22,369 nucleotides of DNA from a virus. Taxonomy: Duplodnaviria; Heunggongvirae; Uroviricota; Caudoviricetes. A model generated the notes under the pieces. That model searched no databases, was not told the origin of the DNA, and saw only the letters and a program-made list of their open reading frames with translations. The stretch covers positions 1-22,369 of IMG/VR virus record IMGVR_UViG_647533160_000004. One strand, 5' to 3'. How positions within the stretch are numbered: position 1 is the first letter of the stretch; each line of letters begins with the position of its first letter. Made by a program: the position numbers and the translations under genes. Positions 5,271-21,262 of the stretch are shown here, in pieces.

Positions 5271-5648
5271 TTACGCAGGTAGGTAAAGATATGATTGTGG
5301 TGGCTTAATATTACTACCTAGAGCAGAGATAGGAATTGGTTCTTTATATCTTTCCACTTCACCAATTTTTATTGCGTAGGCCTTTTCTCTACCTGAATAA
5401 TATGAGTCATAAAATTGCTTAGAAATACCTGCGTGTTTTTCCGTCTTTTTCCAAAGAGATTCCGGTTCGTCACTTAGTATTGATTCAATACGGAATTGAC
5501 CAACAACTTTACCTAATGGCATCGTGGCATAAATAACAACGGTGCTAATTTGCGGATTTTTGAATATACCTTTACGAAACTCGAACCGCTTTGTTCCGTT
5601 CAATATTTTTTCTGCAAACTCAGGCTTAATGGATAATAAAACTTTCAT
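5271..5648 (-). CDS. ASCH-domain protein (PUA-like fold), 125 aa
   Basis: N-terminal MKVLLSIKPEFAEKILNGTKRFEFRKG carries the ASCH signature G-x-K-x-x-E-x-R. AT-rich; overlaps the upstream gene by 23 nt, suggesting translational coupling. Confidence 0.7.
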   Translation of the reverse strand: MKVLLSIKPEFAEKILNGTKRFEFRKGIFKNPQISTVVIYATMPLGKVVGQFRIESILSDEPESLWKKTEKHAGISKQFYDSYYSGREKAYAIKIGEVERYKEPIPISALGSNIKPPQSYLYLPA

Positions 5649-6699
5649 TTATCTTGCCTAACTCGATGATCTTTAAGAACTGCTCATTTGTGAGTTTAAA
5701 GTGACTCCATCGGAATGCACGCGAACCATTTAGCCCCACATGATCTATTAAAATAGCACGATTGGGTCTCTTTGGCAAAGACAGATTGTATGTGAATCTT
5801 ATAATGAAAGGGTATCGACGTTCTTTATAGATTTTTCTGAGTTCATCTTCAGAAAATACGCTAAAACGAATACAATAGTCTACAAAACTATCTTCGCTTA
5901 AAAATTCAGAAATATTTTTTACGCTCTCAACTACACATAATGTACTGGCTACAGAACGATAGCGAGCTGGCCCTTTTTTGTCTCCGGTTCTATAGATGAC
6001 AATGATATCTCCTCTTTTCATTCCCATCACAGAACGCATTCCACATATGTAAATTTTATGAATGCTGTTAGCATGGGATATATCTTTGACAATATCTGGT
6101 GATTCATTTACAAGTTTTGAATCAGGGAATAGTCTAGTGTGATATTCGGGATAAATCGCCAGTAAATATTTGTTGGCCCTTGATGTCATTATTCGAGGGT
6201 AATCTAATAAAATATCACCATAAGGCTCATGCAAAGACCTCGCATATACAAACTCTTTCCCGTTATGTGTTTCTTTTTCACCATGAATGTAAAATCCGTA
6301 CGTTTGGAAAAGTTTTATTAGATGGACGTGTTTGTCGAAAACAGTAACATAAATATCATCAGATTTTGATGAAAATGCATGGTCAAACGCTTTTTTTAGA
6401 AATCGTTGTCCGCGAAGGGTGCCTTTAGATTCAAATTTGAATGTTCCTATCTTTAGATGACGTCCTGGTGGGAGCGCTGGATTAATGTCATTTGCATCAT
6501 CATTTTCTTTTAGATACATAAAACCTTCGATTTTATGCTTGTCATCATAGAGCACATAAGCTGATTCTCCTTCTCTGGCTTTTTTTTCTAACCAAAGAGG
6601 AAACTCTTTATAATCTTTTTTTAAAGAGTCAAAAAATGGGTCATTGTGATCAAAATCAGAGAATTTCTCATATTTTAAAGTATCCATTAAGTTCTCCAT
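5626..6699 (-). CDS. Two-domain cargo protein: N-terminal GNAT-like acetyltransferase region plus C-terminal possible PUA-like region (357 aa; alternative start at 6687)
   Basis: AT-rich ORF directly downstream of cI on the same strand. Residues ~40-160 (...AYVLYDD...KIGTFKFESKGTLRGQRFLKKAFDHAFS...IYVTVFDKHVHLIKLFQTYGFY...) resemble a GNAT fold; domain calls are by eye and unverified. The second ATG has a GGAG Shine-Dalgarno 6 nt upstream. Confidence 0.55.
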   Translation of the reverse strand: MENLMDTLKYEKFSDFDHNDPFFDSLKKDYKEFPLWLEKKAREGESAYVLYDDKHKIEGFMYLKENDDANDINPALPPGRHLKIGTFKFESKGTLRGQRFLKKAFDHAFSSKSDDIYVTVFDKHVHLIKLFQTYGFYIHGEKETHNGKEFVYARSLHEPYGDILLDYPRIMTSRANKYLLAIYPEYHTRLFPDSKLVNESPDIVKDISHANSIHKIYICGMRSVMGMKRGDIIVIYRTGDKKGPARYRSVASTLCVVESVKNISEFLSEDSFVDYCIRFSVFSEDELRKIYKERRYPFIIRFTYNLSLPKRPNRAILIDHVGLNGSRAFRWSHFKLTNEQFLKIIELGKINESFIIH

Positions 6700-7570: not shown

Positions 7571-7798
7571 ATGACAAATCAAACCATTCAACTCGCAATC
7601 AGTATTACAGGTAGTCAAAAACGACTGGCAGATCTATGCGGTGTAGCCCAGCCCACTGTTTGGCGTTGGCTACACGGTGGCGGAATTGATGCCCGCTATG
7701 TAATGAAAATTGTCTCAGCCACTGGTGGAAAGATTAAACCAGCAGATATTCGTCCCGACCTCGCACCATTGTTTAACGCGAGTAATTCTGCCGCCTAA
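7571..7798 (+). CDS. cro: Cro-like HTH regulator (75 aa)
   Basis: Small ORF divergent from cI; HTH-like segment ...QKRLADLCGVAQPTVWRWLHGG...; AGGA about 8 nt upstream of the ATG. Confidence 0.75.
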   Translation: MTNQTIQLAISITGSQKRLADLCGVAQPTVWRWLHGGGIDARYVMKIVSATGGKIKPADIRPDLAPLFNASNSAA

Positions 7799-10082: not shown

Positions 10083-10366
10083 CGGGCAAAGAGGCAATTA
10101 TTCATTACCTGGGGATGCATAAGAGCTTCTGTGCGCAGGACGTTGCTGCGGTAACAGGCGCAACAGTAACCAGCATAAATCAGACTGCGGCTAAAATGGC
10201 GCGGGCAGGAATCTTAGTCATTGATGGTAAGGTCTGGCGAACGGTGTATTACCGGTTCACTACCAGAGAAGAACGGGAAGGAAAGGTGAGCACGAATCTG
10301 ATTTTCAAGGAGTGTCGCCAGAGTGCCGCGATGAAGCGGGTGTTGGCTTTATATGGAAGAGAGTAG
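10079..10366 (+). CDS. ren: Ren protein (95 aa)
   Basis: Translation MTGKEAIIHYLGMHKSFCAQDVAAVTGATVTSINQTAAKMARAG... closely matches lambda Ren as I recall it; overlaps the P stop by 4 nt. Confidence 0.9.
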   Translation: MTGKEAIIHYLGMHKSFCAQDVAAVTGATVTSINQTAAKMARAGILVIDGKVWRTVYYRFTTREEREGKVSTNLIFKECRQSAAMKRVLALYGRE

Positions 10367-10430
10367 GTATGAGCAATTATTGTTACTAATTTTAGTTTTA
10401 CGACATTCGTGATAACTAAATAATTGATGT

Positions 10431-10697
10431 GTGGAACTGAATTATAAAGGGGATGATGTTTTGGGAAATAAAGAAAATATCGATTGTCAGCATACAAGAA
10501 GCTCATGCTATAAAAATAAGCAGATTAGGGTAAGTATGAAAGATGTTATTTATATTACATTGCCTAAACTCACTGAAGAAGAAGTAGAGATTTTTAAGGG
10601 ACCAATGCATAAAGCATTGCTTGTAGGGATAAATGTTACAAAAAAGGCAGTTTCTGATGCCCTGCTAAACAAAGGGATAAAAGTTGAATTTAAATAG
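10431..10697 (+). CDS. Small hypothetical protein in AT-rich cargo (88 aa from GTG; alternative ATG at 10536 gives 53 aa)
   Basis: ORF convergent with the 472-aa gene, in an AT-rich segment after ren; no recognisable motif. Coding status is uncertain. Confidence 0.3.
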   Translation: MELNYKGDDVLGNKENIDCQHTRSSCYKNKQIRVSMKDVIYITLPKLTEEEVEIFKGPMHKALLVGINVTKKAVSDALLNKGIKVEFK

Positions 10698-10713
10698 AGT
10701 AATTCAGTGGCAA

Positions 10714-10741
10714 CAATAGCACTCATTTGTGAGTGCTATTG
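10714..10741. terminator. Perfect 12-bp stem hairpin between convergent genes (putative bidirectional terminator)
   Basis: CAATAGCACTCA-tttg-TGAGTGCTATTG lies between the stop at 10695..10697 (+) and the stop at 10749..10751 (-). Flanking T-tracts are weak. Confidence 0.45.
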
Positions 10742-10748
10742 AAATTTA

Positions 10749-12167
10749 TTAGAAAATAATGTTTGCTATATCCGAGATAGCATTTAAAGAACCTCTGTGG
10801 TCACTTCCTGTTTTAGGTAAAATATAGGAATATCGAGGGTCTTCATTATATGTTAACTTCCAGTGTTTTCCATCGCTTGACGCACTAAAACCTAAGTCCT
10901 TTAAACTTCTTTGTGTTGCGCTATCCATGCTTCTGTACCCTGTTAAAGTCCTTTTAAGTAATTGGCGGCGACTCTCGGTTTCTTTATTGTATTTATTATT
11001 GGCAATTAGGGATGATAAGATATGATAGCTTCTACCAAATTCATTTTTGTTTTTTATGGCAGTTTTTAGTGCGTCAATAATTATATTTTTGATTTCTCCA
11101 TCAAAAAAGTCAGTCTCTTCACCTGCATTAAGCACAATGCTTCCTTGGGCTGAAGCTTGTGATTGAAGAGTGCGTACTCTGTGCTCTAAAGCGGAGATCT
11201 TATGCTTAAGATCTTCTATTTGGTCATCTTTCGCAACATTATCGGCTTCGTAAAGCGCCATCAGTTCGCGTGTGTATTCTCCTCTTTCTTTGAGTGAGTT
11301 AATAGAATCTTTCGTTTTTCTGGTTTGTATCTCACTCCATCCACTATCTGAGACAGGAGCCATTGTAGTCGTAGCTCTTACAACATCATCAAATAACTCA
11401 TCTTCAAATTCTTTTGCGGTTTTCTCACCACGGCGATAAAAACTGATATTTTGACCTCGTGGCCAATAGATACCAACAGCACCAGCATAGGCATTTTTAG
11501 CATTTGTCTCATTTTTTAGCTTAATAGAAAATAGTCTATTGCTAGGCTCAATTAATACATGTGCTAATCCGCATACCTTTCTTGCAAGGCGTTCTGGGAT
11601 GATATTGTGAGCATGTTCATTGAAAAAATACTTGGAGCTAACGTATATTATTGGTAGTCTGTTGTCAGTTTCACCATTTATAACTTTAGCTGCTATATTT
11701 AAATGTTCATCAGTATCATCTAAGGAATGAGGTTCGACTGACACCTTGAAAATATCATCAAGACCACCAGAAAATTTATCAATCAATCTCATAACAACCA
11801 ATGGTTTCTTGGGTTGTGGGGCTAGATAAGCTGCATCTTGGCTTACAACGCTAGATTCCACCTGAATCCACATGGTATCAGTTTTGAGATTTTTATTAAT
11901 TGAAATATCTGTTACCCATTTGTGTGGCTCAGATATTTTCGAATACCTAAAACAGCCTAAACTAGTATCTTTGTTTTTATAAGTTATTATATCAATTCTT
12001 TCATTTTTAGACTCTATGAAGTGCTCCTCGCTTTTATAATCACATACTAATTGTGCTGGAATAAAAGTTGTATGTGGTGAGTCGTTTACCCAAGAAAAAC
12101 ATTCATTAAAGATCTCAGCTAGAGATGTGGAATTTGAAACATAAAAACCAGTTGAGAAATATTTCAT
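10749..12167 (-). CDS. Orphan 472-aa cargo protein, predicted cytoplasmic, with a C-terminal coiled-coil-like region; function unknown
   Basis: Long uninterrupted AT-rich ORF; AAGGA Shine-Dalgarno 6 nt upstream of the ATG at 12165..12167. No Walker or obvious nuclease motifs by eye. Heptad-like charged region ...EDLKHKISALEHRVRTLQSQ... Inserted between ren and the NinB-like ORF. Confidence 0.7.
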   Translation of the reverse strand: MKYFSTGFYVSNSTSLAEIFNECFSWVNDSPHTTFIPAQLVCDYKSEEHFIESKNERIDIITYKNKDTSLGCFRYSKISEPHKWVTDISINKNLKTDTMWIQVESSVVSQDAAYLAPQPKKPLVVMRLIDKFSGGLDDIFKVSVEPHSLDDTDEHLNIAAKVINGETDNRLPIIYVSSKYFFNEHAHNIIPERLARKVCGLAHVLIEPSNRLFSIKLKNETNAKNAYAGAVGIYWPRGQNISFYRRGEKTAKEFEDELFDDVVRATTTMAPVSDSGWSEIQTRKTKDSINSLKERGEYTRELMALYEADNVAKDDQIEDLKHKISALEHRVRTLQSQASAQGSIVLNAGEETDFFDGEIKNIIIDALKTAIKNKNEFGRSYHILSSLIANNKYNKETESRRQLLKRTLTGYRSMDSATQRSLKDLGFSASSDGKHWKLTYNEDPRYSYILPKTGSDHRGSLNAISDIANIIF

Positions 12168-12184
12168 GAAATTTCCTTATTGAT

Positions 12185-12202
12185 AATGAGATTAATCTCA
12201 TT
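12185..12202. promoter_or_regulatory. Perfect 18-bp palindrome AATGAGATTAATCTCATT upstream of the 472-aa gene (candidate operator or 5' UTR hairpin)
   Basis: Perfect 9+9 inverted repeat beginning 18 nt upstream of the start codon, directly 5' of the ribosome-binding site. Confidence 0.45.
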
Positions 12203-12441
12203 GGGTATGATAATTGTTACCCTCCTTTGGATCTAGTGTTCATTTGACATAAAAACCAATTGATTCATCATAATCAACCCGCCATAATCATGTCATCGGA
12301 GCCTGAACAACTCCGGTGACTTCTGCGCTAAACGGGGACGTTTATGCGCACACACAATCCAAACTCTCTTCTCCCTCCACAGATGCAGAAATGCACCTGC
12401 GATTTTTTGCATCCAGCGTTTGGCCTCTGCGGAGGTGAATC

Positions 12442-12795
<354 letters not shown>

Positions 12796-12871
12796 AGAGG
12801 GAAAAGAAACAACTTACGTATATTCTACGTATTCTTCAGGCGCACCACGCTTACAGGTTTCCAAATCTGGT

Positions 12872-14269
12872 TTGTGGGGTTGTCATAATGGCACTGGCTG
12901 GTTGCCATTAGCTGTTGGGCAAGGAGGTACAGGTGCGACAACAGTAGAAGATGCGCGAAACAACTTAAGTCTTGGCGAAAGTAGCGCAGTTAAATTTAAA
13001 AACCTTACTTTAACCGAAGCGCTCGACGTGACATTAGGACTGCTTACAAAAACAGGACGAGACTGGAACACGCAGCATACTGATAACATTAATAAATTTA
13101 TACCAATTGCAGGCAGTACAAACGGCCCGGCAGGTTCTATGGTTCTTGGCGGCATTCATGTTCAATTTAGTAAAAATTATGCTGTGCAGTTCGGAGGCCG
13201 CAATTCCGGTTTTTGGGGAAGAACAATTGAAAATGGAACGACGCAGGAATGGAAGAAATTACTAACAGTAGACGATCTCAATTCATCTACCGATCTTGCT
13301 GTCAGGTCATTAACCACATCTAACCCGGTAAAATCTGGCGGAGGGCGAATTGATGTCCTTGGAAGCACGTCAGACTATAGCAAAATGGATTGCTTTGTAC
13401 GTGGGTTTGATAGCACCGGTAATTCTCTCGTGTGGGCGTTGGGTTCATCAGTCGGCGTAAGTAAGATGCTATCGCTAAAAAATTTCTTTAGCGGAGCTGA
13501 GATACTGTTAAATGGTAATGACGGCGCGGTTCAACTCAAAACAGGTGCTGTTAACGGGGCTACAGCGCAGACGCTCACTATCAACAAGAATGAGGTTAAC
13601 TCAACCGTTGATTTAACCCTTACAAAGCAATCAGGGACTGGTAATCGTTTTGTTTTACAGAACTCAGGTAATGCAGAACTACCGTTTTCTGTCAGGGGGT
13701 GGGGTTCCAGTACTCGACAAAACGTTTTTGAGGTTGGAACGTCTGCTGCGTATCTGTTTTATGCGCAAAAAACGTCAGCAGGCCAGTTGTTTGATGTAAA
13801 TGGCGCTATTAATTGCACAACGCTGAATCAGTCATCAGACCGCGACCTTAAAGACGATATTCTCGTTATCAGCGACGCGACGAAAGCAATCCGTAAAATG
13901 AACGGATACACCTACACGCTCAAGGAAAACGGGATGCCTTATGCTGGCGTTATTGCACAGGAAGTAATGGAGGCGATACCAGAAGCTGTGGGATCGTTTA
14001 CTCATTATGGTGAAGAGTTGCAAGGTCCGACCGTTGACGGCAACGAGCTACGCGAAGAAACTCGCTATCTTAATGTTGACTACTCCGCCGTGACGGGTTT
14101 ACTTGTTCAGGTCGCCCGTGAAACAGATGATCGCGTTACCGCGCTGGAAGAGGAAAACACAACGCTACGTCAAAATCTGGCAACAGCAGGCACCCGGATC
14201 AGCACTCTGGAAAATCAGGTAAGCGAACTGGTTGCACTTGTCCGGCAGTTAACAGGAAGCGAACATTGA
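12872..14269 (+). CDS. stf: Side tail fibre protein, C-terminal portion with a self-cleaving intramolecular chaperone domain (465 aa; N-terminus lost, TTG start in track)
   Basis: Gly/Thr/Ser/Asn-rich fibre-like sequence (...GQGGTGATTVEDARNNLSLG...). C-terminal domain from 13832 has the chaperone-of-endosialidase pattern SDRDLKDD...GYTYTLKENGMPYAGVIAQEVMEAIPEAV...YLNVDYSAVTGLLVQVARE..., recognised from memory of that family. The frame is open upstream without an ATG. Confidence 0.8.
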   Translation: MWGCHNGTGWLPLAVGQGGTGATTVEDARNNLSLGESSAVKFKNLTLTEALDVTLGLLTKTGRDWNTQHTDNINKFIPIAGSTNGPAGSMVLGGIHVQFSKNYAVQFGGRNSGFWGRTIENGTTQEWKKLLTVDDLNSSTDLAVRSLTTSNPVKSGGGRIDVLGSTSDYSKMDCFVRGFDSTGNSLVWALGSSVGVSKMLSLKNFFSGAEILLNGNDGAVQLKTGAVNGATAQTLTINKNEVNSTVDLTLTKQSGTGNRFVLQNSGNAELPFSVRGWGSSTRQNVFEVGTSAAYLFYAQKTSAGQLFDVNGAINCTTLNQSSDRDLKDDILVISDATKAIRKMNGYTYTLKENGMPYAGVIAQEVMEAIPEAVGSFTHYGEELQGPTVDGNELREETRYLNVDYSAVTGLLVQVARETDDRVTALEEENTTLRQNLATAGTRISTLENQVSELVALVRQLTGSEH

Positions 14270-14308
14270 TATCCTTCAAGCCCTGAAGGAGGCTGTTCCT
14301 GGTACGTT

Positions 14309-14440
14309 CAGACTGTTGCTGAGCTGGAGATCGCAACGGAGGAAGAGAAAGCGTTTCTGGCCGCATGGAAAACATATCGGGTATTGCTGAACCGTGTTGA
14401 TACAGTAAACCCCGTCTGGCCTCCACCTTCGAAGCGATAG
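14309..14440 (+). pseudogene. tfa: Remnant of the 3' end of a tail fibre assembly gene (tfa)
   Basis: Translation ...[40 protein letters not shown]... resembles the lambda Tfa C-terminal motif (...[30 protein letters not shown]...). No start codon or N-terminal part is present. Confidence 0.6.
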
Positions 14441-14744: not shown

Positions 14745-15833
14745 CTATTCGCTATAAGTTAATGTTGGTTTTGAAAGTCTTTTGGATATTGTTTTTCCGA
14801 TATTAATGAATGGAGTTTCAATATATTTATAAATAAAGAATGATAAGAACAAGCTAAGAGCAATAATGAATGAAAACTTAGAGAACCCAGGTTTTTCATA
14901 AAGCGGAATGAAATCCTTAAAATTAATTAAAAATAGCATTACTATCGCATGGGATAAATACAGAGAGTAAGAGATATCACCTAGCTTACTGAGTATTTTA
15001 TTTTCCCTTAATCCGAAGTTAACTTCATAAAGTAAAACTCCCGTAATTATGGAGGCTGCCCACAATCCGAAGTTTAAAGGGCCATGACCAAATCTGAATT
15101 GATAAAAATATGAGCAAACACCAAATGAAACCAAAAGGAATGATATCGCCTTTGCGTTTTTTATATATTTAAATTTTCTGTGTATTATATACAGAAACAT
15201 CCCATAAACGAATTCTAACAGCATGGGTGATGACATTAAGTTTAGAAAGCCAATATGCCAATGACCTGTATCACCAATCGTAAACTTACTTGATAGAGAA
15301 AGGCTGTTGGAAAATTTCAACTGTATGAGAAGTAGCGGGACTATCAATGCAATAACTGATATTAATAATCTGTTTTTATGGCTCAGCGATATTGCAAGCA
15401 TAAAAATGAAATAAAAATAGACTTCAAAGGTTAATGTCCATGCTGGATAAAGCACGTTGTATCCGAAGAATGGCGCTTCTGAATAATAGTCCAGGTGAAG
15501 CAGAAACAATGAACGCAATAATTCACTTTCGGTGAAGACTGGGTTCAATAAAAAGAATAAGATTGTGCAAATGAAAAATACAGGGTAAATCCTGAAAAAA
15601 CGCCTGGTCATAAAGTTAATAGGGGAATTTGTTTCTTTTTTTTGACTCGATAACATTATTATAAATCCACTTATAATAAAAAACAGATCAACCCCAAAAC
15701 CACCACTAATAAACAATAAATCACCTAGATCTTTTTGTGCGTAAACTTCATTTAGGTATTGTTTATTGTGATATGCAACAACGAGTAATGCTGCTACACC
15801 TCGCAAATAGTGAATTGATTTTACCTTCTTCAT
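14745..15833 (-). CDS. Acyltransferase-3 family integral membrane protein (OafA/Oac-like), putative O-antigen/LPS acetyltransferase (362 aa)
   Basis: Very AT-rich, highly hydrophobic ORF with about 10 predicted transmembrane segments and N-terminal ...YLRGVAALLVVAYH...GVDLFFIISGFII... typical of acyltransferase family 3. Confidence 0.8.
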   Translation of the reverse strand: MKKVKSIHYLRGVAALLVVAYHNKQYLNEVYAQKDLGDLLFISGGFGVDLFFIISGFIIMLSSQKKETNSPINFMTRRFFRIYPVFFICTILFFLLNPVFTESELLRSLFLLHLDYYSEAPFFGYNVLYPAWTLTFEVYFYFIFMLAISLSHKNRLLISVIALIVPLLLIQLKFSNSLSLSSKFTIGDTGHWHIGFLNLMSSPMLLEFVYGMFLYIIHRKFKYIKNAKAISFLLVSFGVCSYFYQFRFGHGPLNFGLWAASIITGVLLYEVNFGLRENKILSKLGDISYSLYLSHAIVMLFLINFKDFIPLYEKPGFSKFSFIIALSLFLSFFIYKYIETPFINIGKTISKRLSKPTLTYSE

Positions 15834-16871: not shown

Positions 16872-18854
16872 TTGCTCAACAAGTATAATGGAGTTCCCGT
16901 GGATACAGCAGAACATGATGGCAAATTTGCTTGGGCTAGTTTTTATGAGGCTTTTGCCAACGCGTTACTGACTTGGCGAAATCGTAGAGATGAATTAGTC
17001 AAAGGTATTCATCTAATTGCCTCAGGTGTGGAAGGAATGTCCCATCTGCAGGACAAATCTATTATGGGAGAGATCTTTCCCTTAAAAGACATTTGTCCGT
17101 TTACTACTATGGGCTTGTTCAATCGTAACTTGACCGATAGCAATCGCAAAATTATTGCTGCCAAGCTAGCGAATTTGTTGGGCGTGAACGAACCGATTCC
17201 TGACTCCTTTGCCGGAATCCCGCTGTTGAATAACCAAAAATCTTGGTTCTTTGGTTATGAAAAGTCACGCGACCCTAATGACATTGAATGCTTGTGGGAA
17301 ATGTTCTCGCAGGCAATGACCTTTGCGGATAACCAGAATACTAACTCTGCAGACTTCACTGCCGCATATGACATTGCTTCTACAGTAATGAATGTCGGTT
17401 GGAATCTCACCATGGGGTTGTACTGGACCCGTCCTTGGTTCTACCCTACTTTAGATAGCCAGTCGCAGTATTACATTCAGACAGTGTTAAACATTAAGAT
17501 CATTAAAAACGGGGCAAAAGGTCGCTGTAGTGGACAAAGTTACCTGAGTCTTATGCGGGCGCTGAACGAGGTCTTTACCCAACCAAACTATCCGGTTCAT
17601 TCTTTCCCAGAACTTTCTTTATCAGCGTGGAATACAGATCTTAGCCAGTCTAAAGATGAGGTGGCAAATAGAACGTGGAAAGCCTCTTTACTGAATAAAA
17701 TTAAGGCGTTATGCCTGAAAAAAAATGGCCCTTATTTCACTGCTTCGGAGTTGGAAGAAAACTACTTGGACGTATTCAAGGTAGAGCATCCTGAGAGCAA
17801 AACAGTTACAAGCTCAATCTACTTTTATCTACAGAAACTATGCAATGATGATGAGTTAAAGTCCCTTGAGTCCGGAAATTATGAATACCTGAATTTTGAG
17901 AAAAACGAATCCCAGACGATAACTGAGGAAACTGTCGAAGAGAGTGCGCCGTTGCCAAAACTCACTCACGTTCCTTATGACATCAGTCATCTGGTGCAGG
18001 ATGGCTGTTTCTTGGAAGAGGCTAAGATCCAACTCACACTTCAGCGCCTGATCGACAAGAAAAACCTGATATTACAAGGACCACCCGGAACTGGAAAAAC
18101 CTGGTTAGCGCGACGTCTGGCGTACTGCTTGATGGGAGAAAAAGCACCTGAGCGTATTAGCGCGGTGCAATTTCACCCGAACCTCTCTTACGAAGACTTT
18201 ATTCGCGGCTGGCGTCCAGGTAAAGAAGGGCAATTGACGCTAATTGATGGACCTTTTGTAAATGCAATCAAAACTGCAGTCAATAATCCTACCTCGAAAT
18301 ATGTGGTGATAATTGAAGAGATTAATCGTGGCAATCCGGCGCAAATCTTCGGTGAAACACTCACGTTGATGGAAGCAGATAAACGCACGCCGACTGAGGC
18401 ATTATCTCTTTCCTATCCTAAAAATGATGATGAAAAAATATACATTCCTGAGAATCTATATATCATCGGTACGATGAATATTGCAGACCGCTCACTCGCA
18501 CTACTTGACCTAGCGCTGCGCCGTCGTTTCGCGTTTATCGATCTAAAGCCAGCTTTTAATGACGCGTGGAGAAACTGGGTAAATTATAATTACGCAATTG
18601 ATTTTGACATGTTAGCATTCATCAAATCTCGACTGACGGTACTTAACGATATGCTGGCAAAAGATGTTACCTTAGGACCACAGTTTTGTATCGGTCACAG
18701 CTATGTCACCCCAGCTATCGGCCAAAAAATCAACGATGCCCAGGCTTGGTATGAACAAGTCGTTGATACAGAGATCTGCCCTTTGCTCGCCGAATATTGG
18801 TTCGATGCTCCAAATAAAGTCGATGAAGCCAGAAAAGTGTTATTAGCAAAATGA
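16872..18854 (+). CDS. McrB-like AAA+ GTPase with a long (~390 aa) unassigned N-terminal region (660 aa; alternative GTG start at 16899)
   Basis: C-terminal module has Walker A LQGPPGTGKTW, Walker B VVIIEEINRG and the McrB-type motif IGTMNIADRS. The N-terminal ~390 aa show no motif I can assign. GGAG lies 5 nt upstream of the GTG at 16899. Confidence 0.85.
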   Translation: MLNKYNGVPVDTAEHDGKFAWASFYEAFANALLTWRNRRDELVKGIHLIASGVEGMSHLQDKSIMGEIFPLKDICPFTTMGLFNRNLTDSNRKIIAAKLANLLGVNEPIPDSFAGIPLLNNQKSWFFGYEKSRDPNDIECLWEMFSQAMTFADNQNTNSADFTAAYDIASTVMNVGWNLTMGLYWTRPWFYPTLDSQSQYYIQTVLNIKIIKNGAKGRCSGQSYLSLMRALNEVFTQPNYPVHSFPELSLSAWNTDLSQSKDEVANRTWKASLLNKIKALCLKKNGPYFTASELEENYLDVFKVEHPESKTVTSSIYFYLQKLCNDDELKSLESGNYEYLNFEKNESQTITEETVEESAPLPKLTHVPYDISHLVQDGCFLEEAKIQLTLQRLIDKKNLILQGPPGTGKTWLARRLAYCLMGEKAPERISAVQFHPNLSYEDFIRGWRPGKEGQLTLIDGPFVNAIKTAVNNPTSKYVVIIEEINRGNPAQIFGETLTLMEADKRTPTEALSLSYPKNDDEKIYIPENLYIIGTMNIADRSLALLDLALRRRFAFIDLKPAFNDAWRNWVNYNYAIDFDMLAFIKSRLTVLNDMLAKDVTLGPQFCIGHSYVTPAIGQKINDAQAWYEQVVDTEICPLLAEYWFDAPNKVDEARKVLLAK

Positions 18855-19972
18855 CGACAATAACCGGGAGTGAGCAACATACAGCATCACGTATTCCCAT
18901 GCGAAATATCTGGATGCTGATGCTGTACGCTTCAGATCTGTTTCGTCAGTTAGGGCGCAATCAGATCGCAGTAGAAGATAACCCAGCAGAAATCCCCGAC
19001 CTGGTGGCGACAATCCTCCTTCATGAGATTACGCTGCGCCGACGTCGCAATTTAAATATGGGATACCAAACTTGTCATGCGGCCCTGAACCGGGTGAGAG
19101 GGCGCATTGACATACTGTATACTGCCAGTCATCAACTACTGGAACGGGGACAGGTTGCCTGCCATTTTCAAGACATAACCCTCAACACCCCCCGAAATCG
19201 CTATGTTCGCTGTGCGTTAGAACGTCTGGCCTCAATCATAGTGAAACCGTCTTTGGCGGCAGATTGCCATTTTATGGCAATATCACTTCGCCGTGAGGGG
19301 ATAAATGGAGGATATCCTGCCCCCCACGAATTACCCTCAGTGTGGCGTTTTGGACGCCATGATGCCGCAGATAAACCGATGGTCGATGCCGCACGATTAG
19401 CTTTTGAACTGCTGATGCCGACCGAAGATCAAGGCCAATATCTTTTACCTGCGCCCTCAAATAACCTTTACTGGATGAGAAGACTATTTGAAAAAGGTAT
19501 CGCTGGCTTATATCGTGTACACCTTGCCAAAACAACTTGGCAGGTCTCTGCAGGGAAAGAGCTGAAATGGGCGTTGAGCGATCAAAGTGCAGGTAGTGCA
19601 GAGATTTTCCCGACAATGAAGTCAGACATTATTCTGGAACACAAGACTGCCCAGCGGCGTATTATTATCGATACCAAATTTAATTCGATTCTGACAAAGG
19701 GTTGGCATCGGGAGCAATCACTACGTAATGGCTATATTTATCAGCTATATACCTACCTTAGAACACAGGAGAACAAGACGGATCCGCTTTCGCTCAATGC
19801 CGCTGGTCTTCTACTTCATCCAGCTGTTGGCTATATGCTTAATGAGTATGTTGTCACTCAGGGACATAAGATCCATTTTGCTACAGTAGATATGACGGTA
19901 GATGCTAAAGCAATTAAAAAACAATTGCTGGCAATAGCCCATGATTGTGCAGGAGTCGCGGTTGATGACTAA
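18851..19972 (+). CDS. McrC-like endonuclease subunit (PD-(D/E)xK), 373 aa
   Basis: Start overlaps the McrB-like stop (ATGA, 18851..18854). C-terminal ...KSDIILEHK...RRIIIDTKF... fits a PD-(D/E)xK nuclease core; size and pairing are as in McrBC systems. Confidence 0.8.
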   Translation: MTTITGSEQHTASRIPMRNIWMLMLYASDLFRQLGRNQIAVEDNPAEIPDLVATILLHEITLRRRRNLNMGYQTCHAALNRVRGRIDILYTASHQLLERGQVACHFQDITLNTPRNRYVRCALERLASIIVKPSLAADCHFMAISLRREGINGGYPAPHELPSVWRFGRHDAADKPMVDAARLAFELLMPTEDQGQYLLPAPSNNLYWMRRLFEKGIAGLYRVHLAKTTWQVSAGKELKWALSDQSAGSAEIFPTMKSDIILEHKTAQRRIIIDTKFNSILTKGWHREQSLRNGYIYQLYTYLRTQENKTDPLSLNAAGLLLHPAVGYMLNEYVVTQGHKIHFATVDMTVDAKAIKKQLLAIAHDCAGVAVDD

Positions 19973-20482: not shown

Positions 20483-20674
20483 TGTATTGAGATGTTAATA
20501 AAATGTAGACTTGTAATTTGGATATAAATGGTAGAGAAAACCTTTCCCCAAAATAAAAACGAACGTCAATGAAATCAAACGGTTGAATAAAGTTGATTTT
20601 GGCTAATAAAAAAACAATAAAATAATTTTTATCATTAAATATCAATGACTTGAACTTAATGTTTTTATATACTG

Positions 20675-20836
20675 TTACGCCATATGGGCTGGACTGAAGC
20701 CGCAGACTTGATTGTTAAAGGTATGGAAGGCGCAATCAATGCGAAGACCGTAACCTATGACTTCGAACGTCTGATGGAAGGTGCTAAACTGCTGAAATGC
20801 AGCGAGTTTGGTGATGCGATCATCAAGAACATGTAA
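20675..20836 (+). pseudogene. icdC: Displaced 3' fragment of isocitrate dehydrogenase gene (icd', last about 53 codons), marking the right prophage junction
   Basis: In-frame translation ...[53 protein letters not shown](stop) matches the Icd C-terminus as I recall it. No start codon; the frame has a stop just upstream at 20657..20659. Confidence 0.85.
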
Positions 20837-20938: not shown

Positions 20939-21262
20939 TTACTTGAGTCCATATAGGCATATTTTTATAATGCAACTATTATGCAAACATTTATTTGTTA
21001 TTTCGCTTTCTCCTGGAGGACACTCTTGACTGCTTTTGAGTAAAATCCATAAATCCTTGTTGAATGGTGTGATGTTATAAATAGTAATAGGGTATTCTTT
21101 ATCCTTAAGGATAATACCAGACTTAACCGGTGTAAATATACTTCCAGGAGGGAGAAATATAGTAGATTGATACCAGATGATCATTTTCATATCACCCCAT
21201 ATGGCTGAAAAAGATATGCCGCATGTAGGTTGAATTACCGTGTCAATTACTATCCACTTCAT
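20939..21262 (-). CDS. iraM: Anti-adaptor protein IraM (RpoS stabiliser), 107 aa
   Basis: Translation [43 protein letters not shown]... matches IraM in length and, as I recall it, in sequence; AT-rich gene with a long AT-rich upstream region. Confidence 0.8.

What the first reader, a model, noticed from the sequence alone, without database searches (positions are those of the whole stretch)
10431..12330. Orphan 472-aa AT-rich cargo gene with a perfect 18-bp palindrome at its 5' end, inserted between ren and the nin region
The ren/nin boundary of lambdoid phages often carries accessory genes. Here a long AT-rich ORF with no motif I can recognise (no P-loop, no obvious nuclease signature, C-terminal coiled-coil-like segment) is inserted in the opposite orientation to the replication genes. 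A perfect palindrome AATGAGATTAATCTCATT sits just upstream of its ribosome-binding site, and a perfect 12-bp stem hairpin separates it from a small convergent ORF. This looks like an autonomously regulated module, a candidate single-gene abortive-infection or defence protein.
Basis: partly seen in the sequence, partly recalled or inferred. Interest (0 to 1): 0.75.

Follow-up and report, generated by a model that had tools for sequence, protein, structure and literature searches.

The report
Prophage copy of defence gene DS-10

Summary
All the sequence features are real. There is a 472-aa ORF at 10749-12167(-), a perfect 18-bp palindrome at 12185-12202, and a 12-bp-stem hairpin at 10714-10741. 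They lie in an AT-rich cassette (~10350-12259) between ren and the nin region of a defective prophage at icd.

The gene is not an orphan. A profile search finds 3,432 protein clusters of the same ~470-aa design.

The protein is 98% identical (392/399 aa available) to DS-10 (WP_087897267.1). The DefensePredictor study (Science 2026, PMC13092281) cloned DS-10 as a single gene with its native promoter. It cut Bas1 plating 10^5-fold and gave small plaques with Bas3 and lambda.

Structure prediction gives five parts:
- an AdoMetDC-like N-terminal domain;
- a thioredoxin-like domain without CxxC;
- a coiled coil;
- a helical linker;
- a C-terminal HicA-like domain with one invariant histidine (H435).

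The N-terminal half is distantly homologous to the validated HEC-07 defence protein, which ends in a RelE-like RNase instead. I did not find this link in the DS-10 paper.

The palindrome is a conserved 7-bp-stem hairpin at the predicted 5' end of the mRNA.

Best mechanism (inferred): a self-inhibited sensor fused to an RNase. Verdict: interpretation supported, already known, modest interest.

The parts
10749..12167 (-). 472-aa defence gene, an allele of DS-10 (98% identical over the 399 residues available)
   Evidence: ORF. Identity to WP_087897267.1/DS-10. dN/dS 0.085 against the MB20 copy. Family of 3,432 clusters.
11832..12167 (-). aa 1-112: N-terminal beta-rich domain, AdoMetDC-like (spermine synthase N-domain-like)
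11358..11810 (-). aa 120-270: thioredoxin-like alpha/beta domain without CxxC. Carries the invariant GxAHVxxEP (H203, E207) and YxGAxGIYWP motifs.
11157..11339 (-). aa 277-337: long helices, coiled-coil segment
   Evidence: Helices 277-294 and 300-337. Only coiled-coil noise in Pfam and PDB sequence searches.
10944..11096 (-). aa 358-408: three-helix linker region with invariant E351/E358/R379 nearby
10758..10922 (-). aa 416-470: HicA-like (dsRBD-type alpha-beta-beta-beta-alpha) putative RNase domain; H435 is invariant
   Evidence: - Topology.
- Foldseek: 8 of the top 14 hits are HicA.
- Pfam: HicA_toxin is the commonest family among C-terminal segments, 22 of 78.
- PADLOC: HicA-like in 5 of 41 members.
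- PDB profile search: best hit is E. coli HicA, with H435 aligned on HicA H23.
- Independent: HHpred HicA at 416-471, prob 0.91, in PMC13092281 Table S8.
12185..12202 (-). Inverted repeat AATGAGA-TTAA-TCTCATT. Predicted 7-bp stem with 4-nt loop at the 5' end of the mRNA, or an operator.
   Evidence: Conserved as AATGAGA-N4-TCTCATT at the same distance from the ribosome-binding site in 9 relatives' sequences. 60 of 60 cells are paired, with 5 G.U and 1 double change, and the loop varies. RNA fold -5.0 kcal/mol, z -4.15. No Rfam match.
12207..12235 (-). Promoter-like site inside the cassette: TAGATC (12230-12235), 17 nt spacer, TATCAT (12207-12212). It ends 4 nt before the hairpin.
   Evidence: Read from the sequence. 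ACTAGAT(C/T)-17-TAT(C/T)AT or TACCAT is conserved in register in L019 and L120. The -35 is a poor consensus match (3 of 6). Not mapped experimentally.
10714..10741 (.). 12-bp perfect stem, TTTG loop. Terminator-like hairpin between the two convergent genes.
   Evidence: The T-run is weak on both strands, so intrinsic termination is inferred only.
10431..10697 (+). 88-aa convergent ORF. Accessory gene found only beside this family in three enterobacterial lineages.
   Evidence: Homologues with 46% identity in the C-terminal ~50 aa lie convergent and immediately downstream of the family gene in L123 (100 aa) and L019 (166 aa). There are no other relatives in 5.8 billion proteins. It is absent from other close relatives. 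No family assigned.
10350..12259 (.). Variable cargo cassette within the ren to ylcH/ybcN slot
   Evidence: Homology to prophages with other cargo stops at 10345/10353 and resumes at 12260. Only 24 of 5,426 complete E. coli genomes carry this cassette.

Best explanation
The gene is a prophage-borne allele of DS-10, a single-protein anti-phage defence system.

The polypeptide has two halves. The N-terminal half is a regulatory or sensing scaffold: an AdoMetDC-like domain, a thioredoxin-like domain without CxxC, and a coiled coil. This half is homologous to the validated defence protein HEC-07. The C-terminal end is a small HicA-like domain.

Proposed working:
- In uninfected cells the N-terminal scaffold and coiled coil (probably a dimer) hold the HicA-like RNase inactive in cis, so no separate antitoxin is needed.
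- A cue from certain phages (Bas1; more weakly Bas3 and lambda) releases the domain.
- The domain then cuts RNA using the invariant His435. This stops gene expression in the infected cell and blocks phage production.

The gene comes with its own weak promoter. A conserved 5'-terminal stem-loop most likely sets mRNA stability or the expression level. A terminator-like hairpin insulates the prophage's rightward operon from antisense transcription.

Shown: the defence phenotype of a 98%-identical protein (literature), the domain folds, the homologies, the mobility, and the lack of a conserved partner.

Inferred: RNase activity, cis-inhibition, the trigger, abortive outcome, and the role of the hairpin.
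For: - Identity to DS-10: 392 of 399 residues, with the same length.
- DS-10 phenotype: cloned as a one-gene unit with its native promoter on a low-copy plasmid in MG1655. Bas1 fell from 3e6 to 30 PFU; Bas3 and lambda gave small plaques.
- HicA-like C-terminus with invariant H435 aligned on HicA H23.
- No conserved neighbouring gene in 80 genome loci, and the full-length architecture is kept across 3,432 clusters.
- Purifying selection: dN/dS 0.085.
- Cargo positions: lambdoid ren/nin slot; P2-like gpA-gpQ hotspot; islands beside an integrase; an ICE; 31 IMG/VR viral contigs.
- Hairpin and promoter conservation.
Against: - No experiment on DS-10 addresses mechanism. 'DS-10' does not occur in the paper's main text.
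- The HicA fold is also a plain dsRNA-binding fold, so the domain could bind rather than cut RNA.
- The immediate neighbours of distant relatives are mostly housekeeping or unrelated genes. Only a few are defence genes.
- No deposited phage genome carries the gene.
- The shuffle control for hairpin covariation is not significant (229 of 500).
Confidence: 0.6

Rival explanations
1. The C-terminal HicA-fold domain is an RNA-binding sensor rather than the effector. It would recognise a phage double-stranded or structured RNA. The toxic or enzymatic activity would then lie in the thioredoxin-like domain, with its invariant His203/Glu207/Asp137.
For: - The HicA fold is a dsRBD-type fold, and the match to HicA is weak in sequence.
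- The most conserved motifs of the whole family (GxAHVxxEP, YGGAVGIYWP) lie in the thioredoxin-like domain. The His is also kept in HEC-07 (GVAHV).
Against: - HEC-07 keeps the same N-terminal scaffold but swaps the C-terminus for a different RNase fold (RelE-like, with its catalytic His). That is the pattern expected if the C-terminus is the exchangeable effector.
- H435 is the single invariant residue of the C-terminal domain in 78 diverse sequences. It aligns with the catalytic His of HicA.
Confidence: 0.15
2. The gene is mainly a fused toxin-antitoxin or addiction module. It would stabilise the mobile elements that carry it, and phage defence on a plasmid would be a side effect.
For: - It is carried on prophages, integrase islands and an ICE.
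- Some relatives lie among Fic/YhfG, HipA-like and BrnA toxin-antitoxin genes.
- Fused HicA-containing proteins have been discussed as single-gene toxin-antitoxin units (PMC10865869).
Against: - Strong, phage-specific restriction from the native promoter: 10^5-fold for Bas1, no EOP change for Bas3.
- It occupies a known defence hotspot in a P2-like phage.
- A single polypeptide has no obvious way to give post-segregational killing.
Confidence: 0.1
3. The 18-bp palindrome is a DNA operator for a dimeric repressor that shuts the gene off. The repressor could be the small convergent ORF product or a prophage regulator. On this view it is not an RNA hairpin.
For: - It is a perfect palindrome overlapping the predicted transcription start.
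- The half-sites AATGAGA/TCTCATT are conserved with a variable 4-bp centre, as expected for two half-sites.
- A conserved ACTAGAT motif upstream goes beyond what a -35 would need.
Against: - In 5 of 9 relatives' sequences the changes are G.U-compatible on the sense strand but break the DNA symmetry, and one pair changed on both sides.
- The small ORF has no recognisable DNA-binding domain. It is absent from relatives that keep the hairpin: L020, L107, L120 and L122.
- DS-10 works in MG1655 without the prophage.
Confidence: 0.3

Closest known systems
DS-10 ('ZAPB', WP_087897267.1) of the DefensePredictor study (Science 2026, PMC13092281)
   Same: Same length (472 aa). 392 of 399 available residues are identical. 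HicA-like domain at 416-471. Single-gene unit from E. coli.
   Different: Seven substitutions in the part that could be compared; the last 73 residues of DS-10 were not available as text. The genomic context of the DS-10 source strain was not examined here. That paper classed it as a novel defence gene. As far as I could find, it did not link it to HEC-07 or study its mechanism.
HEC-07 (P. aeruginosa WP_039244286.1; Payne et al., bioRxiv 10.1101/2024.01.29.577857; PADLOC PDLC04158-04161)
   Same: Single-protein validated defence. AdoMetDC-like N-domain, thioredoxin-like domain lacking CxxC, then a coiled coil. Sequence homology over ~230 columns (hhalign prob 95.8%, E 8e-9). Shared GxAHV and LYExDN motifs.
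   Different: About 19-25% identity. HEC-07 is ~549 aa and ends in a RelE-like RNase (H543), whereas this protein ends in a HicA-like domain. HEC-07 was found embedded in Hma systems, and this gene is prophage cargo.
HicA toxins of HicAB type II toxin-antitoxin systems (Pfam PF07927; PDB 6hpb, 5yrz, 6g26, 4p78, 1whz)
   Same: Alpha-beta-beta-beta-alpha fold. The invariant His lies where HicA has its catalytic His.
   Different: The domain is fused to a 410-aa N-terminal region, and there is no HicB gene or conserved partner. The window sequence is below Pfam thresholds. It has extra conserved residues (K437, D443, R445, Y446, S455, D456, R458, N462) that are not part of the HicA signature.
Fused HicA proteins, Gerdes classes 11-14 (mBio 2024, PMC10865869)
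   Same: Monocistronic proteins with a C-terminal HicA domain, proposed to act in phage defence.
   Different: Class 13 is 340-440 aa with a predominantly alpha-helical N-terminal region. Class 14 is SMC-like. This family is ~470 aa with two alpha/beta domains. Its accessions were not found in the parts of the supplement that are held.
CapRel(SJ46)-type fused toxin-antitoxin defence (analogy only, as cited in PMC10865869)
   Same: The concept of one polypeptide in which one region inhibits the toxic domain and senses the phage.
   Different: No sequence or fold relationship. The toxin chemistry and the domain order differ. Nothing of this mechanism has been tested for DS-10.

Membership tests
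DS-10 (DefensePredictor discovered system 10) | Near-identity to the tested protein WP_087897267.1 (472 aa) | tested here: met
   BLASTP gives 392/399 identical with no gaps. Only the first 399 residues are held in the supplement text.
DS-10 (DefensePredictor discovered system 10) | Single-gene transcription unit with its own promoter | tested here: met
   No co-directional neighbour. The flanking genes are convergent or divergent. No conserved partner in 80 loci. Promoter-like site within the cassette.
DS-10 (DefensePredictor discovered system 10) | Protects E. coli against phage (Bas1 and others) | not testable with these tools
   Taken from PMC13092281 Table S7 for the 98%-identical protein. 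Not measured for this allele.
HEC-07 | AdoMetDC-like N-terminal domain | tested here: met
HEC-07 | Thioredoxin-like second domain lacking the CxxC site | tested here: met
HEC-07 | Match to the PADLOC HEC-07 profile over the whole protein | tested here: inconclusive
   E 1.2e-9, but only model positions 107-363 of 553. All 41 relatives match in the same partial way.
HEC-07 | C-terminal RelE-family RNase domain with catalytic His (H543) | tested here: not met
   The C-terminus is alpha-beta-beta-beta-alpha and HicA-like. No RelE/ParE hit in Pfam or PADLOC.
HicA toxin (PF07927) | dsRBD-like alpha-beta-beta-beta-alpha fold | tested here: met
HicA toxin (PF07927) | Conserved catalytic histidine near the first beta-strand | tested here: met
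   H435 is invariant in 78 sequences. It aligns to H23 of E. coli HicA (6hpb) and to the GSH His of a plasmid HicA.
HicA toxin (PF07927) | Sequence match above the Pfam gathering score | tested here: not met
   No hit for the window protein or its C-terminal segment even at E<=10. 22 of 78 relatives' segments hit at E<=1, best 7.6e-4.
HicA toxin (PF07927) | Adjacent HicB antitoxin gene | tested here: not met
   No conserved neighbour. Neighbour Pfam scan shows no recurrent partner.
HicA toxin (PF07927) | Translation-independent mRNA cleavage | not testable with these tools
   Needs biochemistry.

The most novel reading that the evidence does not exclude
DS-10 and HEC-07 would be two branches of one widespread superfamily of single-chain immune proteins. 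A shared AdoMetDC-like plus thioredoxin-like plus coiled-coil module would be a new kind of phage sensor or cis-inhibitor, carrying interchangeable RNase warheads (HicA-like or RelE-like). In one enterobacterial sub-clade the unit would have gained extra control layers: a 5'-terminal mRNA hairpin and a small convergent partner protein found nowhere else.
Probability: 0.45. Interest if true: 0.5.

Novelty: already known. Interest (0 to 1): 0.3.

Why it matters
The main question, whether this is a defence gene, was already answered by experiment in 2026. This work adds context that could guide mechanistic study.
- It ties DS-10 to HEC-07 through a shared N-terminal scaffold with a swapped RNase domain. 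That points to which half senses and which half kills.
- It names candidate catalytic residues: H435, K437, R445, Y446, D456 and R458.
- It shows that the family is large (thousands of clusters across many phyla) and moves between the cargo slots of lambdoid and P2-like prophages, integrase islands and an ICE.
- It identifies a conserved expression module (promoter, 5' hairpin) and a lineage-restricted small partner ORF.

None of this is surprising to a specialist in phage defence.

Tried and rejected
- Whole-protein scans with Pfam, NCBIfam and PHROGs gave only coiled-coil noise. The one exception was a C-terminal match to the unannotated phrog_2053.
- A PDB sequence search with the family profile gave only coiled-coil hits.
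- tblastn against 50,697 deposited phage genomes found no match.
- The afdb50 fold library was not available.
- Rfam scan of 10300-12500 found nothing at E<=1.
- The RefSeq label 'phospholipase D-like domain-containing protein' on the small ORF in strain MB20 has no Pfam support. I reject it.
- The idea that the small ORF is a chance ORF is rejected, because diverged homologues sit in the same place in two other genera. The idea that it is a required partner is also rejected: it is absent from close relatives, and DS-10 was cloned as a one-gene unit.
- Conserved-partner search: the largest neighbour family is shared by only 4 of 80 loci.
- Test for enrichment of defence genes next to distant relatives: neighbours are heterogeneous, with a few CBASS, methyltransferase, PDC-S19, mad2 and DUF3644 genes, and there is no baseline. 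This is not used as strong evidence.
- Gerdes class 13 'large HicB-HicA fusion' was considered and not adopted, because its size and N-terminal fold differ.
- The sigma-70-like site at 12296-12267(-) lies in the shared phage backbone outside the cassette. It is not taken as the gene's own promoter.
- The new P4-hotspot systems (Bandua, Aernus, Toga, Reve, Hailong) do not match this architecture.
Full report
**1. What is in the sequence**

The ORF at 10749-12167 on the minus strand encodes 472 aa. It starts at an ATG preceded by AAGGA at 12174-12178. GC is 0.34-0.39 across 10501-12000, against 0.44-0.56 in the O/P/ren genes.

The perfect palindrome AATGAGATTAATCTCATT lies at 12185-12202. It is the only 9+9 perfect palindrome in the window. 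About 11% of block shuffles of the window contain one somewhere.

The hairpin CAATAGCACTCA-TTTG-TGAGTGCTATTG lies at 10714-10741 and is perfect. It separates the gene from a convergent 88-aa ORF at 10431-10697.

The window is 100% identical over 10300-12450 to E. coli VCSW7 and VCSW5. In VCSW7 the element is a defective lambda-like prophage at icd. Its order is int, xis, exo/bet/gam, a cI-like repressor, O, P, ren, the cassette, a ylcH-like ORF, then a truncated ybcN joined to a tail-fibre fragment.

**2. A variable slot**

Only 24 of 5,426 complete E. coli genomes hold this cassette, whereas thousands share the flanks. Prophages with the same ren and ylcH/ybcN flanks carry unrelated small genes there. 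Homology to them stops at 10345/10353 and resumes at 12260. The cassette is therefore about 10350-12259 and includes the small ORF.

**3. Not an orphan**

The word-indexed search found 74 clusters, all about 470 aa, from Enterobacterales through Pseudomonas to Caulobacter. A profile search of 1.84 billion representatives found 3,432 clusters at E<=1e-3 and 1,038 at E<=1e-30. Nearly all of the best 150 match full-length. A genome scan found relatives in many phyla.

Against the 97%-identical MB20 copy there are 12 synonymous and 4 non-synonymous differences, giving dN/dS 0.085.

**4. Already validated**

A literature search for HicA in defence led to the DefensePredictor paper (Science 2026, PMC13092281). 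Its supplement lists unit 'ZAPB' = DS-10 = WP_087897267.1, a 472-aa 'hypothetical protein' of E. coli. HHpred places a HicA domain at residues 416-471.

The 399 residues held in the text are 98% identical to the window protein, with no gaps. [quoted passage not shown] Only validated units received DS numbers.

Table S7 gives, for ZAPB:

| Phage | Empty vector (PFU) | With ZAPB (PFU) | Plaques |
|---|---|---|---|
| Bas1 | 3e6 | 30 | - |
| Bas3 | 1e8 | 1e8 | small |
| Lambda | 6e7 | 1.1e7 | small |

The string 'DS-10' does not occur in the main text, so I found no mechanistic work on it.

**5. Architecture**

An AlphaFold2 model built on 41 sequences has mean pLDDT 83.7.

- There is no CxxC motif in the sequence.
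- Helices 277-337 form the coiled-coil segment, and 358-408 is a helical linker.
- Residues 416-470 fold as alpha-beta-beta-beta-alpha.

A separate model of the last 62 residues (pLDDT 84.6) has HicA structures as its best matches.

- Foldseek: 8 of the top 14 hits are HicA.

Sequence evidence agrees but is weak.

- Pfam HicA_toxin is the commonest family among 78 C-terminal segments (22 hits, best 7.6e-4).
- PADLOC 'HicA-like' hits 5 of 41 members.
- The best PDB hit of the C-terminal profile is E. coli HicA, E 0.77.

In that last alignment H435 falls on HicA H23, and H435 is the only invariant residue in the 78 C-terminal sequences. That H23 is the catalytic residue of E. coli HicA is from my own knowledge.

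**6. Relation to HEC-07**

The window protein matches PADLOC HEC-07 (PDLC04161) at E 1.2e-9 over model positions 107-363 of 553. All 41 aligned relatives match it.

I took the sequence of the tested HEC-07 from that paper's Table S2. The family profile aligns to it with hhalign probability 95.8% and E 8e-9, over window residues 82-321. BLASTP gives 25% identity over 151 residues, including the GxAHV and LYExDN motifs.

HEC-07 ends in a RelE-like RNase, while this family ends in a HicA-like domain. The two validated systems thus share a scaffold and differ in the C-terminal RNase-type domain. The DS-10 paper classed the gene as 'Predicted novel defense gene'.

**7. Genomic contexts of relatives**

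No neighbouring gene is conserved: the largest neighbour family is shared by 4 of 80 loci.

- The 77%-identical clade is the last gene beside an integrase in an island that sits at two different chromosomal sites.
- A 49%-identical Morganella protein lies between gpA and the portal gene gpQ of a P2-like prophage. This is the old/tin defence hotspot described by Rousset et al. (PMC9122126).
- A Dickeya copy is inside an ICE beside IS110 and an Mrr-like gene.
- Pseudomonas copies lie beside a prophage integrase or among toxin-antitoxin genes. They are preceded by a HipA_C-like gene and a ~247-aa gene.
- A distant copy lies among radical SAM, HSP70, AAA+-protease and Schlafen-like genes.
- 31 IMG/VR viral contigs encode members, but no deposited phage genome does.
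- The nearest neighbours of 45 distant loci are heterogeneous, with only a few known defence genes.

**8. The palindrome**

In the closest sub-clade (window, L099/L100, Siccibacter, Pantoea, L107, L120, L122) the element recurs as AATGAGA-N4-TCTCATT at the same distance from the ribosome-binding site. The loops differ: TTAA, AAAC, ATAG, ATAT, ATAA, AACA.

All 60 scorable cells pair. The variation consists of five G.U cells and one double change. These keep an RNA stem on the sense strand but break the DNA symmetry. The shuffle control is not significant (229 of 500) because the columns vary little. Slid controls pair 37-65% of cells.

A conserved TAGATC-17-TATCAT promoter-like site at 12207-12235 ends 4 nt before the stem. 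This puts the hairpin at the start of the mRNA. The stem is weak (-5 kcal/mol).

I favour a 5'-terminal RNA stem-loop that sets mRNA stability or expression level. That such 5' stem-loops stabilise E. coli mRNAs is general knowledge. An operator is not excluded. The 77% clade has a different upstream region.

**9. The small ORF**

The first search found only near-identical E. coli copies. tblastn against the fetched loci then found diverged homologues, 46% identical in the C-terminal ~50 aa. They lie convergent and immediately downstream of the family gene in Siccibacter (166 aa) and in a Scandinavium-type viral contig (100 aa).

A profile search found nothing else in 5.8 billion proteins. Other close relatives lack it. 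It has no family assignment. Between E. coli copies it differs by an in-frame 12-bp indel and five substitutions.

It is a real accessory gene restricted to a few lineages, and its role is unknown. DS-10 is listed as a one-gene unit, which suggests the ORF is not needed for Bas1 defence. I could not check the exact cloned fragment.

**10. Verdict**

The mechanism I commit to is a cis-inhibited HicA-like RNase on a HEC-07-type sensing scaffold. It is an inference with about 0.6 confidence. The identity as a defence gene is far more secure.

Noticed in passing
window 5271-6687 (-): Two overlapping genes next to the cI-like repressor (the slot where lambda has rexAB) match the PADLOC candidate defence system PDC-M11. 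The 353-aa protein matches PDC-M11A at E 2.9e-133. The 125-aa ASCH-domain protein matches PDC-M11B at E 6.8e-52.
   Followed up: partly
window 16899-19972 (+): An AAA-family ATPase (651 aa) followed by a gene annotated McrC. This is a McrBC-like restriction pair near the icd-proximal end of the element. PADLOC hits are weak.
   Followed up: partly
window 12442-14440: ybcN is cut at 12726 and followed by tail-fibre and tail-fibre-assembly fragments. The prophage has lost Q, lysis and morphogenesis genes and is defective. The element lies between int (2-1144) and a duplicated icd fragment (20669-20836).
   Followed up: no
window 21099-21114: A second perfect palindrome, TTATCCTTAAGGATAA (8+8), lies in the AT-rich host region near iraM/ymgL.
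   Followed up: no
L008 6126-9410 and L143 5094-8413: In Pseudomonas the family gene is preceded, in the same orientation, by a HipA_C-like kinase gene and a ~247-aa gene (weak HIRAN hit). This may be a three-gene unit in that clade.
   Followed up: no
L003 about 7766-7785: The 77%-identical clade lacks the 5' hairpin. It has a different perfect 20-bp palindrome, ATTAATGATTAATCATTAAT, roughly 215 nt upstream of its start codon.
   Followed up: no
L002 3132-3386 (= window 10431-10697): RefSeq calls the small ORF in strain MB20 a 'phospholipase D-like domain-containing protein'. Pfam gives no PLD match at E<=1.
   Followed up: yes
window 14745-15833 (-): An acyltransferase-family gene lies in an AT-rich stretch (GC ~0.35) after the tail-fibre fragments. 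It may be a lysogenic-conversion gene. It has no PADLOC match.
   Followed up: no
L141 7001-8425: A 49%-identical family member occupies the gpA-gpQ hotspot of a P2-like prophage of Morganella morganii. The same defence gene family is thus shuttled between lambdoid and P2-like phage cargo slots.
   Followed up: partly
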